A stretch of DNA of 64,000 nucleotides from an uncultured Bacilli bacterium (lineage in GTDB: Bacteria; Bacillota_I; Bacilli_A; RFN20; CAG-826): assembly GCA_944327845.1 (NCBI GenBank), contig CALVHN010000002.1, forward strand, positions 5,326-69,325, written 5' to 3'. Shown here one piece after another: positions 49,547-50,424 of this stretch. How positions within the stretch are numbered: the first letter of the stretch is position 1; each line of letters opens with the position of its first letter. Both the position numbers and the translations under genes were made by a program. The notes below the pieces were generated by a model. That model ran no database searches, had not been told where the DNA came from, and saw only the letters and a list, made by a program, of their open reading frames with translations.

Positions 49547-49557
49547 AAATAAAAGTT

Positions 49558-49577
49558 CATAAATGTATACATTTATG
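49558..49577. repeat. left recombination site: perfect 20-bp palindrome CATAAATGTATACATTTATG
   Basis: Self-complementary 20-mer. Together with 7 bp of outer flank (AAAAGTT) it forms an inverted repeat with 50394-50420. Confidence 0.8.
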
Positions 49578-50403
49578 TTTTAATTATTTTAGCAATAACT
49601 TCTAATTTTTAAAAGACTAATGTTAGTATTTATCATTTCTCCTAGGATTTATCCTTTTTTAGCAAATTATAAAATGAAGTTCTAGATATCTTTAAATAAT
49701 CTAAACACTCTGCTAAACTCATATTTTTTCTTAAATATTCATCTTTAATTTTGTTAAATTTAGAATTAATTTTTATTTTTGGTCTTCCAAACTTAATACC
49801 TTTTTCCTTTGCTATTCTTATTCCTTCTGCTTGCCTTTGTCTTATATTTTCTCTCTCATTTTCTGCAATGAAAGAAAGTAGTTGTAAAACTAAATCAGCA
49901 ACAAATCTACCCCATAAGTTTGTTGGTTTATCTCTTGTATCAAGAATTGGCATATCAATTACATAAATATCTGCTTTTATATCACATGTTATTTTTTTCC
50001 GTTGTTCTCCAATTTCTCGATAATTTCTTCCCAATCTATCGATTGATTTTATTATTAAAACATCTTTTTCTTTTATTTTTTTTATCATTCTTTGATAAGC
50101 TTTACGATTAAAATCTTTCCCAGATTGTTTATCTATAAAAAGATTTTTTTGCTTAATATTAAATTTCTTCATTTCTTCTACTTGTCTATCAATTTTTTGA
50201 GATATTGAAGATACTCTCACATATCCATAATACATACAAAAATCCTCCTCTAAATATTTACCTAAAATAACAAAATTTATAAAAATATTATACTTTTGCA
50301 AGGATATTTAGAGAAATCCATCATTTATTTATGTTTATTTATTAAAAATTGTTACTCAATTTATTTTATTCATTAATTAATAAATTTTTTATTCATTTAA
50401 GTA
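49568..50403. mobile_element. putative invertible DNA segment (Hin-like switch) carrying the invertase gene
   Basis: Bounded by the inverted sites 49551-49577 and 50394-50420. Contains only the serine recombinase gene. Each site lies 4 nt upstream of the ATG of divergently oriented SipW-cognate operons. Confidence 0.7.
49642..50235 (-). CDS. serine recombinase, Hin/Gin-type DNA invertase
   Basis: MYYGYVRVSSISQKIDRQ matches Hin IGYIRVSTIDQNIDLQ (catalytic Ser). KSIDRLGRN motif and a C-terminal HTH. Start at 50235 preferred because a GGAGG RBS sits 7 nt upstream. The ORF-track start at 50301 has no RBS. Confidence 0.85.
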   Translation of the reverse strand: MYYGYVRVSSISQKIDRQVEEMKKFNIKQKNLFIDKQSGKDFNRKAYQRMIKKIKEKDVLIIKSIDRLGRNYREIGEQRKKITCDIKADIYVIDMPILDTRDKPTNLWGRFVADLVLQLLSFIAENERENIRQRQAEGIRIAKEKGIKFGRPKIKINSKFNKIKDEYLRKNMSLAECLDYLKISRTSFYNLLKKDKS

Positions 50404-50413
50404 TACATTTATG
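50394..50413. repeat. right recombination site: imperfect palindrome CATTTAAGTATACATTTATG
   Basis: The inner half has 3 mismatches and the outer half is perfect. With the flank AACTTTT it is the reverse complement of 49551-49570 (21 bp perfect inverted repeat). Confidence 0.8.
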
Positions 50414-50424
50414 AACTTTTAAAA

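What the first reader, a model, noticed from the sequence alone, without database searches (positions are those of the whole stretch)
49551..50420. Hin-like invertible switch between two divergent surface-protein operons
A serine invertase gene (49642-50235, minus strand) sits in a segment of about 836 bp bounded by inverted sites. The left site is a perfect 20-bp palindrome CATAAATGTATACATTTATG. The right site, CATTTAAGTATACATTTATG, has one imperfect half, much like hixL/hixR. Including 7 bp of outer flank, the two ends form a perfect 21-bp inverted repeat (AAAAGTTCATAAATGTATAC and GTATACATTTATGAACTTTTA). Each site ends 4 nt before the ATG of an operon of SipW-cognate proteins (49546 leftward, 50425 rightward). 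In the present orientation the invertase gene is co-directional with the leftward operon, and no terminator lies between them, so read-through would drive that operon. Inversion would redirect transcription into the rightward operon, giving an ON/OFF alternation of two antigenically distinct surface-protein sets, as in Salmonella hin/fljBA.
Basis: partly seen in the sequence, partly recalled or inferred. Interest (0 to 1): 0.88.

Follow-up and report, generated by a model that had tools for sequence, protein, structure and literature searches.

The report
Invertible promoter toggling two surface-protein operons
An 836-bp DNA segment that carries its own recombinase gene and an outward-facing promoter really does flip in nature between two back-to-back operons of variable surface proteins in an uncultured gut bacterium, so it is a genuine on/off antigen switch of a familiar logic built from unfamiliar parts.

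Summary
A 21-bp perfect inverted repeat (49550-49570 / 50401-50421) brackets a 197-aa serine recombinase gene. Independent metagenome assemblies carry the same locus with this segment flipped. One 20.6-kb contig is base-for-base the product predicted if the window is cut at the centres of both sites and the piece is reversed. Orthologous switches in three related lineages (recombinases 64-73% identical) also occur in both orientations.

Only about 11 nt separate each site from the start codon of the adjacent operon, so transcription must begin inside the segment. A conserved extended -10 promoter sits 7-8 nt from the perfect-palindrome site, downstream of the recombinase gene, in four lineages. 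The opposite end has no conserved equivalent. In the window's orientation the leftward 219/970-aa operon should be ON and the rightward 890/802/832-aa operon OFF.

- The enzyme is closer to Sin and the resolvases than to Hin/Gin.
- The crossover centre is a symmetric AT.
- The "SipW-cognate" label is unsupported.
- A dedicated promoter, not only read-through, is the likely driver.

Relatives share one cassette among three or four operons, which resembles the Mycoplasma vpma/vsp loci but uses a serine recombinase. Expression was not measured.

The parts
49550..49570 (.). Left arm of the 21-bp perfect inverted repeat (TAAAAGTTCATAAATGTATAC). The crossover falls inside it.
   Evidence: In L001 and L002 the flank is identical up to 49570 and the sequence is inverted beyond that point.
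49558..49577 (.). Promoter-side recombination site: the perfect 20-bp palindrome CATAAATGTA|TACATTTATG, with its centre (AT) at 49567|49568.
   Evidence: The same palindrome lies next to the promoter in every related lineage that uses this site type.
49586..49613 (-). Candidate outward promoter P_out: -35-like TTTAAA (49613-49608), a 16-nt spacer, and the extended -10 TGcTAAAAT (49594-49586). It lies 8 nt from the site and points into the 219/970 operon.
   Evidence: promoter scan, TG flagged. Searches show the position is conserved in four lineages; background frequency is 0.028 per position, or 0.0015 with TGn.
49642..50235 (-). Small serine recombinase gene (197 aa) with the catalytic Ser in YVRVSS and the SIDRLGRN motif. 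A strong Shine-Dalgarno sequence (GGAGGA) lies at 50243-50248.
50236..50393 (-). Region upstream of the recombinase gene, inside the segment. It holds candidate promoters for the recombinase gene itself (TTGCAA at 50296-50301; TATAAT at 50287-50292; TAAATT further downstream).
   Evidence: The assignment is by inference only.
50394..50413 (.). Second recombination site, CATTTAAGTA|TACATTTATG. The inner half is degenerate and the gene-proximal half is perfect. Centre at 50403|50404.
   Evidence: After inversion the degenerate half moves to the other junction, as seen in L001.
50401..50421 (.). Right arm of the 21-bp inverted repeat.
45975..49546 (-). Leftward cargo operon: 219-aa protein (48887-49546) and 970-aa protein (45975-48887). 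It is predicted ON in the window's orientation. The 970-aa protein has a membrane helix, a beta-rich ectodomain, a Hint/BIL domain and a helical C-terminus.
50425..57993 (+). Rightward cargo operon: 890 aa (50425-53097), 802 aa (53094-55502) and 832 aa (55495-57993, with a Hint-like C-terminal part). It is predicted OFF in the window and ON in L001, L002, L004 and L008.

Best explanation
This is a self-contained phase-variation cassette. The 836-bp segment between the centres of two GTATAC-centred sites carries a small serine recombinase gene with its own promoter. Downstream of that gene, 8 nt from the perfect-palindrome site, it also carries an outward-facing extended -10 promoter (P_out). 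The recombinase pairs the two sites, cuts at or near their centres and rotates the DNA, reversing the segment without gain or loss of a base. Each flanking operon starts only about 11 nt beyond its site, so it has no room for a promoter of its own and is transcribed only when the P_out end of the cassette faces it. In the window's orientation the 219/970-aa operon is ON and the 890/802/832-aa operon is OFF; inversion swaps them. The products are fast-evolving, membrane-anchored surface proteins that differ between strains, so a clonal population holds two surface types. What is shown: the repeats, the recombinase, both orientations in nature, exact conservative junctions, and conservation of the site and of the -10 element. 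What is inferred: that this recombinase is the catalyst, that P_out is the active promoter, and that expression alternates.
For: Inversion is real. L001 (20,594 nt) equals exactly the sequence predicted by inverting window 49568-50403, with zero differences in 19.8 kb of flank. The junction alignment shows fixed outer flanks and swapped inner half-sites. Orientation tally for this species: window-like in the window, L003, L007, L050, L051 and L052; inverted in L001, L002, L004 and L008, all from different samples and assemblers. Both orientations also occur at the syntenic locus in the P0002 lineage (73% identical recombinase; L009 vs L010), in P0003 (L058/L059 vs L060/L061) and in P0015 (64%; L070 vs L071). 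Contigs L023 and L054 end exactly where the alternative junctions diverge, as expected when both forms are mixed within one sample. On the enzyme and its site: the P0015 lineage uses a different half-site (AAAAGTATACTTTT) with its diverged recombinase, and catalytic motifs align with Sin. On the promoter: TGcTAAAAT, TGtTAGAAT, cgcTATAAT and TGgTATTAT lie 7-8 nt from the palindromic site in four lineages whose surrounding sequence is otherwise unalignable, against a background of 0.028 per position, or 0.0015 with TGn. L009 and L070 have no -10-like hexamer within 40-50 nt at the opposite end. The leaders outside the sites are about 11 nt long. No terminator lies between the recombinase gene and the operon.
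Against: There are no expression data, so ON/OFF is inferred. The -35 element in the window is weak (TTTAAA). A weak -10-like TAAATT lies 7 nt from the other end in the window species, and L017 and L022 also have weak matches there, so some transcription of the 'OFF' operon cannot be excluded. The first gene of each operon lacks a Shine-Dalgarno sequence, although most genes here have one, so translation control is not understood. The central dinucleotide is a symmetric AT, which on its own does not favour inversion over deletion; what imposes directionality is unknown. Each assembly reports one consensus orientation per sample, and switching within a single clone was not observed directly.
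Confidence: 0.75

Rival explanations
1. The inversion switch is as described, but it is driven only by read-through from the recombinase gene's own promoter. There is no separate promoter downstream of the recombinase gene.
For: No terminator lies between the recombinase stop codon and the site in the window species, and the recombinase gene is always co-directional with the operon next to the palindromic site.
Against: An extended -10 element is conserved at a fixed 7-8 nt from the site in four lineages, far above background. L017 has a stable hairpin directly after the recombinase stop codon (z = -2.15), which would limit read-through there. Tying the level of a recombinase to that of abundant surface proteins would also be unusual.
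Confidence: 0.12
2. The inversion is real but is not an ON/OFF toggle. Both ends of the segment carry outward promoters, so flipping merely exchanges promoter strength or leader sequence, or it mainly regulates the recombinase itself.
For: Weak -10-like hexamers lie near the recombinase-upstream end in the window species (TAAATT at 7 nt), in L017 and in L022. In 26% GC DNA such matches are common: 15 found against 15.7 expected.
Against: L009 and L070 have nothing within 40-50 nt at that end, and none of the matches has TGn or a conserved position. In the three- and four-operon relatives the distal silent operons are preceded by non-cassette DNA, so they can only be silent.
Confidence: 0.08
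3. The opposite orientations are assembly artefacts caused by the inverted repeat, or they are fixed strain differences rather than programmed switching.
For: Every observation comes from metagenome assemblies. No single-clone data are available.
Against: The repeat (21 bp) is shorter than the assemblers' k-mers, so the junctions must be spanned by reads. Four assembly pipelines agree. The flanks are 100% identical over 19.8 kb, so the flip is the only difference. The same polymorphism recurs in four lineages. Contigs break exactly at the junction divergence points.
Confidence: 0.03
4. The gene is the resolvase of a mobile element, and the repeats are the element's ends or res sites.
For: The best solved-structure matches are transposon and plasmid resolvases: Sin/Bin3, gamma-delta and Tn3.
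Against: There is no transposase. The segment is only 836 bp. It sits at the same chromosomal position (between the Flg_new lipoprotein gene and dinB/cdaA-like genes) in lineages whose recombinases are 64-73% identical. What is observed is in-place inversion, not insertion polymorphism.
Confidence: 0.02

Closest known systems
Salmonella Hin / hixL-hixR / fljBA flagellar switch
   Same: The serine recombinase gene lies inside a segment of about 1 kb. An outward promoter sits between the recombinase gene and one site. The two sites are in inverted orientation and one half-site is imperfect. Inversion alternates surface antigens.
   Different: By sequence the enzyme is nearer Sin and the resolvases than Gin. 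The site is a 20-bp palindrome with a symmetric AT centre, not a 26-bp hix site with an asymmetric centre (my knowledge of hix). Hin uses Fis and an enhancer, which are not expected in Bacillota. Here the promoter serves an operon on either side directly, whereas in Salmonella the alternative antigen is controlled through the repressor FljA.
Mycoplasma agalactiae vpma / M. bovis vsp / M. pulmonis vsa loci (Xer1, Mbr, HvsR)
   Same: One unique promoter serves several alternative surface-protein genes. Each gene has a conserved recombination site in its 5' untranslated region, and site-specific inversions bring a silent gene to the promoter (PMC2268961). Relatives of the window locus have three or four such operons. 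The host lineage is also low-GC and Mollicutes-related.
   Different: Those systems use tyrosine recombinases encoded beside the locus. Here a serine recombinase travels inside the promoter cassette. The cargo consists of operons of large signal-anchored proteins, not single lipoprotein genes. The window itself has only two targets.
Bacteroides fragilis Mpi master invertase and invertible polysaccharide promoters
   Same: A small serine invertase flips promoter segments that control surface structures in a gut commensal. Mpi is the best NCBIfam match, and the match covers the full length.
   Different: The score is 54 bits against a cut-off of 272, so this is not an Mpi family member. Mpi acts in trans on many dispersed promoters, whereas here the enzyme lies inside its own single cassette and only two sites exist in 64 kb.
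Sin (Tn552/pI9789) and beta recombinase (pSM19035) of Firmicutes
   Same: Sin is the closest solved relative (2r0q, E 7e-28). As in resolvase site I, the crossover site has a symmetric AT centre. Beta recombinase is known to catalyse inversion as well as resolution (my knowledge).
   Different: Those enzymes resolve plasmid or transposon multimers and need accessory sites plus an HU-like protein. No conserved accessory site was found here, and the biological role is gene switching.
Campylobacter fetus sap S-layer promoter inversion (own knowledge, not checked in the library)
   Same: A single outward promoter on an invertible element alternates between oppositely oriented surface-protein gene cassettes.
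   Different: The sap inversion depends on RecA and uses long homologous 5' regions. It does not use a dedicated site-specific recombinase with short sites.

Membership tests
Small serine recombinases (resolvase/invertase, PF00239) | N-terminal catalytic domain scoring above the Pfam threshold | tested here: met
   94.4 bits against a cut-off of 23.3; residues 3-146 cover 2-143 of the 145 profile positions.
Small serine recombinases (resolvase/invertase, PF00239) | Catalytic serine and the DRLGR motif aligned with characterised enzymes | tested here: met
   YGYVRVSSISQ aligns with Sin IGYARVSSLDQ, and SIDRLGRNY with SIDRLGRNY (alignment).
Small serine recombinases (resolvase/invertase, PF00239) | Length of about 180-210 aa with a C-terminal helix-turn-helix DNA-binding domain | tested here: inconclusive
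   The protein is 197 aa, and its alignment to Tn3 resolvase spans residues 3-195. There is no HTH_7 Pfam hit, only a weak YlxM-like HTH at 161-194 (E 0.0023).
Hin/Gin/Cin/Pin DNA invertases | Closest sequence kinship to the Hin/Gin group | tested here: not met
   Gin (4m6f, 3uj3) scores 41 and 40 bits, against 101 bits for Sin and 75-76 bits for gamma-delta and Tn3.
Hin/Gin/Cin/Pin DNA invertases | 26-bp site with a non-palindromic central dinucleotide that sets site polarity | tested here: not met
   The site is the 20-bp palindrome CATAAATGTA|TACATTTATG with a central AT. The hix/gix features are from my own knowledge.
Hin/Gin/Cin/Pin DNA invertases | Fis-bound recombinational enhancer | not testable with these tools
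   The rest of the host genome is not available. Fis is not known in Bacillota (own knowledge).
Invertible-promoter phase-variation switches (invertons) | Short inverted repeats bounding a segment that is found in both orientations in natural populations | tested here: met
   and for related lineages.
Invertible-promoter phase-variation switches (invertons) | Outward-reading promoter inside the segment | tested here: met
   Met at the sequence level only: a conserved extended -10 lies 7-8 nt from the site in four lineages, and the leader outside the site is about 11 nt long.
Invertible-promoter phase-variation switches (invertons) | Orientation-dependent expression of the adjacent genes | not testable with these tools
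   This needs RNA data or reporter assays.
Mycoplasma vpma/vsp-type single-promoter multigene inversion loci | One promoter, with several silent genes that each carry the recombination site in the 5' UTR | tested here: met
   The window has two targets. L017, L022 and L053 have three, and L056 has four with identical leaders of about 50 nt. The definition is from PMC2268961.
Mycoplasma vpma/vsp-type single-promoter multigene inversion loci | Tyrosine recombinase (Xer1/Mbr/HvsR) | tested here: not met
   The enzyme is a serine recombinase.
Mpi family master invertase (NF009949) | Score above the NCBIfam equivalog cut-off | tested here: not met
   54.3 bits against a cut-off of 272.
SipW-cognate (TasA/camelysin-type) signal peptide, TIGR04088 | Match to the signal-peptide model | tested here: not met
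   No NCBIfam hit for the full proteins or for the five 60-aa N-termini at E <= 10. The shared motif is G-[FY]-[SA]-x-[FW].

The most novel reading that the evidence does not exclude
The window locus is the two-target form of an undescribed serine-recombinase 'promoter shufflon' in uncultured, Mollicutes-related gut Bacilli. One mobile cassette (invertase gene plus an extended -10 promoter) is delivered by nested inversions to any of two to four alternative adhesin-like operons. The design is built-in: the promoter-bearing site is always a perfect palindrome, while every silent site keeps one degenerate half. The proposal is that silent sites recombine productively only with the promoter site, which would protect the array from deletions even though the AT crossover is symmetric.
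Probability: 0.35. Interest if true: 0.7.

Novelty: new variant of a known kind. Interest (0 to 1): 0.58.

Why it matters
Phase variation by promoter inversion is well known. Known examples, however, come mostly from Proteobacteria, Bacteroides, Clostridia and classical mycoplasmas; one survey found only a single inversion signature among 22 Bacilli samples (PMC5903667).

This locus is a natural, fully specified minimal module: an 836-bp cassette with 20-bp sites. It switches large surface-protein operons in an uncultured gut lineage, and it follows the logic of the Mycoplasma vpma/vsp systems while using the other recombinase superfamily.

- It gives a concrete handle on surface variation in organisms known only from metagenomes.
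- It warns that MAG gene order at this locus is a population average.
- It offers a compact serine-recombinase and site pair with a symmetric crossover, in which the question of how inversion is chosen over deletion can be tested.

Tried and rejected
- SipW/TasA-type signal peptides: no hit, even at E <= 10.
- Terminator between the recombinase gene and the operon: none in the window species. Only L017 has a hairpin there.
- Extra sites in the window: the 13-mer with up to 2 mismatches gave only coding-region chance matches at 20195, 52691 and 62568.
- Accessory recombinase-binding sites inside the segment: a CATAAATAAATG motif upstream of the recombinase gene is conserved among strains but not across species. 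Not pursued.
- An upstream mini-ORF starting at the ATG within the half-site: not conserved between the two leaders or across species (from reading the sequences).
- Reference-genome scan: the species itself is absent. The best hit is 59% identical, and most distant relatives lack this architecture.
- P0044 (63% identical): lies between GGDEF and ArsB genes and shows no variation in 8 contigs.
- JGI metagenome scan with the 20-bp palindrome: 11 hits. All are unrelated longer palindromes except L073.
- Literature searches for this switch, or for invertons in RF39 or Erysipelotrichaceae: nothing relevant. Jiang et al. 2019 is not held in the library.
- Cluster look-up: gave no names or accessions, so the organism is placed only approximately.

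Full report
**1. The observation**

The sequence is as described.
- GTATACATTTATGAACTTTTA occurs exactly twice in the 64-kb window, as an inverted pair at 49550-49570 and 50401-50421. With up to three mismatches allowed, 0.01 matches are expected by chance.
- The left site, 49558-49577, is the perfect 20-bp palindrome CATAAATGTATACATTTATG. The right site, 50394-50413, differs at three positions, all in the half that faces the inside of the segment.
- The site spacing is 836 bp.
- Between the sites, on the minus strand, lies a 197-aa ORF (49642-50235) with a strong GGAGGA ribosome-binding site. It has a full serine-recombinase catalytic domain (PF00239, 94 bits).
- The flanking ORFs start at 49546 (leftward) and 50425 (rightward).
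- No terminator-like structure lies in 48800-50700. The stretch from the recombinase stop codon to the site folds no better than shuffled sequence.

**2. The inversion happens in nature**

I looked up contigs that encode exactly this recombinase and exactly the neighbouring 219-aa protein and compared them with the window by blastn.
- Four independent assemblies (L001, L002, L004, L008) have window 49571-50400 reversed.
- L003 and L007 have the window's orientation.
- The junction alignment shows the outer flanks fixed and the inner half-sites exchanged.
- I built the predicted product in silico by cutting the window at the centres of both sites and reversing the piece. L001 matches it at all 20,594 positions. 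There is not one substitution in 19.8 kb of flank, so the flip is the only difference.
- Strain variants L050, L051 and L052 add three more loci in the window-like orientation.

**3. The switch is conserved, and it flips in relatives too**

The recombinase belongs to a large family of proteins of 194-203 aa. The lineages below share the synteny: an ABC transporter, an 840-850-aa protein and a Flg_new lipoprotein on one side, and dinB- and cdaA-like genes on the other.

| Lineage | Identity to the window recombinase | One orientation | Other orientation |
|---|---|---|---|
| P0002 | 73% | L009, L011 | L010, L012, L013, L015, L016 |
| P0003 | 73% | L058, L059 | L060, L061 |
| P0015 | 64% | L070, L072 | L071 |

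- Contigs L023 (1116 nt) and L054 (1122 nt) are the segment alone. They end exactly where the alternative junction partners diverge, although the repeats are shorter than the assemblers' k-mers. That is what a mixture of orientations within one sample produces.
- The P0015 lineage uses a different half-site (AAAAGTATACTTTT) with the same GTATAC centre. Site and enzyme therefore co-vary, which supports this recombinase as the catalyst.

**4. How the switch controls the operons**

- Every target gene is preceded by GTATACATTTATG and then a short leader. In the window this leader is 11 nt (AACTTTTATTT or AACTTTTAAAA) before the ATG. No promoter fits outside the site, so transcription must start inside the segment.
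- On the side downstream of the recombinase gene, a -10 element lies 7-8 nt before the perfect palindrome in all four lineages that use this site type: TGcTAAAAT (window, 49594-49586), TGtTAGAAT, cgcTATAAT and TGgTATTAT. The last also has TTTACA at a 17-nt spacing.
- In this 26% GC DNA, such a hexamer occurs at 2.8% of positions, and at 0.15% with the TGn extension. The surrounding sequences of the window, L009 and L022 lineages do not otherwise align.
- At the opposite end, reading outward, L009 and L070 have nothing within 40-50 nt. The other lineages have only weak, unconserved matches.
- The most likely mechanism is therefore a dedicated outward promoter inside the cassette, with read-through from the recombinase gene as a possible supplement. 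The window should express the 219/970 operon, and L001-type cells the 890/802/832 operon. This step is inferred, because no RNA data were available.

**5. Site anatomy**

- The promoter-side site is always the perfect palindrome. Every other site keeps a perfect gene-proximal half and a degenerate inner half, often TACTTAAAAA and in the window TACTTAAATG.
- Because the crossover is central, the palindrome is re-formed at whichever gene becomes joined to the promoter, as seen in L001.
- The centre of the site is AT, which is symmetric. By itself the overlap does not therefore distinguish inversion from deletion. What imposes directionality remains open.
- One hypothesis, untested, is that only pairs that include the perfect site are productive.

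**6. Relatives have more than two targets**

- L017, L022 and L053 each carry a third gene-proximal site in front of a third operon.
- L056 has four operons (at +1394, -8587, +9681 and -18038) with identical leaders of about 50 nt. Only the one at 9681 is joined to the promoter cassette through the palindrome.
- The geometry allows each operon to be reached by nested inversions.
- The window has only two sites in 64 kb.

**7. What is switched**

- The cargo proteins have no Pfam or NCBIfam family apart from weak Hint hits. The SipW-cognate model does not match.
- All have an N-terminal signal-anchor followed by G-[FY]-[SA]-x-[FW], and they form paralogous 'small plus large' pairs across species and on both sides of the switch.
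- They evolve fast. The 219-aa protein has four homologs in 5.8 billion proteins. Cargo identity between species is 40-50% or undetectable, against 61-69% for the neighbouring genes.
- Strains of one species carry different operons on the Flg_new side, some with Big_2 adhesin domains.
- An AlphaFold model of the 970-aa protein (mean pLDDT 80) shows a membrane helix, a long beta-rich ectodomain, a Hint/bacterial-intein-like domain and a helical C-terminus. The Hint domain matches inteins and BIL domains with target TM-scores of about 0.8. It also gives a profile E-value of 2e-7 against 6tmm/6y75, and 8 of 22 family members hit Pfam Hint.
- These features fit variable surface proteins.

**8. Comparison with known systems**

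- **Function.** The cassette is organised like Hin: the recombinase gene lies inside the segment, with an outward promoter next to one site.
- **Family membership.** It is not a Hin-family member. Sin/Bin3 scores 101 bits, gamma-delta and Tn3 resolvases about 75, and Gin 41. It also scores far below the Mpi cut-off, 54 against 272 bits.
- **Multi-target relatives.** These follow the logic of the Mycoplasma vpma/vsp/vsa loci: one promoter, silent genes, and sites in the 5' UTRs. Those loci use tyrosine recombinases (PMC2268961).
- **Literature.** I found no description of this switch.
- **Host.** It is a chromosomal locus of a 26% GC organism using the standard genetic code, with rpoB/rpoC, recA, rny and a class-B RNase P RNA. 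The nearest recombinase relatives in reference genomes are uncultured gut Bacilli, Mollicutes, Anaeroplasma and Erysipelotrichaceae MAGs.

**9. Verdict**

This is a real, programmed DNA inversion switch. It is a new variant of a known kind. Interest is moderate to high for phase-variation and microbiome specialists, and modest in general.

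Noticed in passing
window 45975-48887 (-) residues ~745-888; window 55495-57993 (+) residues ~590-820: Both switched operons encode a large protein with a C-terminal Hint (bacterial intein-like) domain followed by a conserved helical tail of about 80-100 aa. 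The two C-terminal regions are 32% identical over 220 aa. This suggests self-cleavage or self-processing of the surface protein.
   Followed up: partly
window 49481-49546 (-), 48822-48887 (-), 50425-50545 (+), 53094-53190 (+), 55495-55620 (+): All five cargo proteins, and their relatives in other species, share an N-terminal signal-anchor ending in G-[FY]-[SA]-x-[FW] (VGFSSF, VGFSTF, IGFSSW, IGLASF, VGFSSF). It matches no known signal-peptide model. It may be the recognition motif of an unidentified processing or sorting enzyme.
   Followed up: partly
L050 5594-5720; L051 5606-5720: Other strains of the same species replace the 219/970 operon with a 210/1085-aa (Big_2) or a 211-aa-led operon. 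Their leader contains a second, remnant half-site, GTACATTTATGTAAATTAAAAATATG, identical to the leader in the sister species (L009). This suggests operon cassettes are exchanged between species together with their half-site.
   Followed up: partly
L056 1394, 8587, 9681, 18038; L053 4629, 5722, 13491; L017 4882, 7892, 8657; L022 7577, 8675, 14323: Related species have three or four target operons for one recombinase and promoter cassette. In L056 each operon begins with an identical leader of about 50 nt and a 40-aa mini-ORF (MYQKI...).
   Followed up: partly
window 49547-49557 and 50414-50424: The first gene of each switched operon has no Shine-Dalgarno sequence, although about 60% of genes in the window, including the recombinase gene, have one. 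The predicted mRNA would begin with the site palindrome, which folds as an 8-bp hairpin (z = -2.5 to -3.0). How translation starts is unexplained.
   Followed up: partly
L030 6595-6740; L033 6589-6761: Clostridia relatives of the recombinase (51-54% identical) lie beside a segment of about 106 nt flanked by 20-34-nt inverted repeats (TCATAAAGTAGACCTTTTGA / TCAAAAAGTCTACTTATTGA). This looks like a classical small invertible element with the enzyme outside it. L025 has a 22-nt repeat bracketing its recombinase gene, next to a helicase-like gene.
   Followed up: no
L073 6050-6069 and 6179-6640: One contig from the metagenome scan (its name begins ERZ869983) carries the identical 20-bp palindrome 110 nt upstream of a serine recombinase that is only 29% identical to the window enzyme. 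Whether this is coincidence or a distant cognate pair is unknown.
   Followed up: no
window 13658-13987 (+); 63867-63940 (-); 152-7743 (+); 15229-17987 (+): Housekeeping context: class-B RNase P RNA, tRNA-Gly(GCC), rpoB, rpoC, recA and RNase Y. GC content is 26% and TGA is used as a stop codon, so the host is a low-GC Bacillota/Mollicutes-like organism with the standard genetic code.
   Followed up: yes
window 62556-62568 (-); orthologous position L009 ~16190: A 2-mismatch match to the gene-proximal half-site (GTATATATTTATT, preceded by TTTAA) lies in the overlap of two conserved genes and is conserved in the sister species. It is most likely chance within coding sequence.
   Followed up: no
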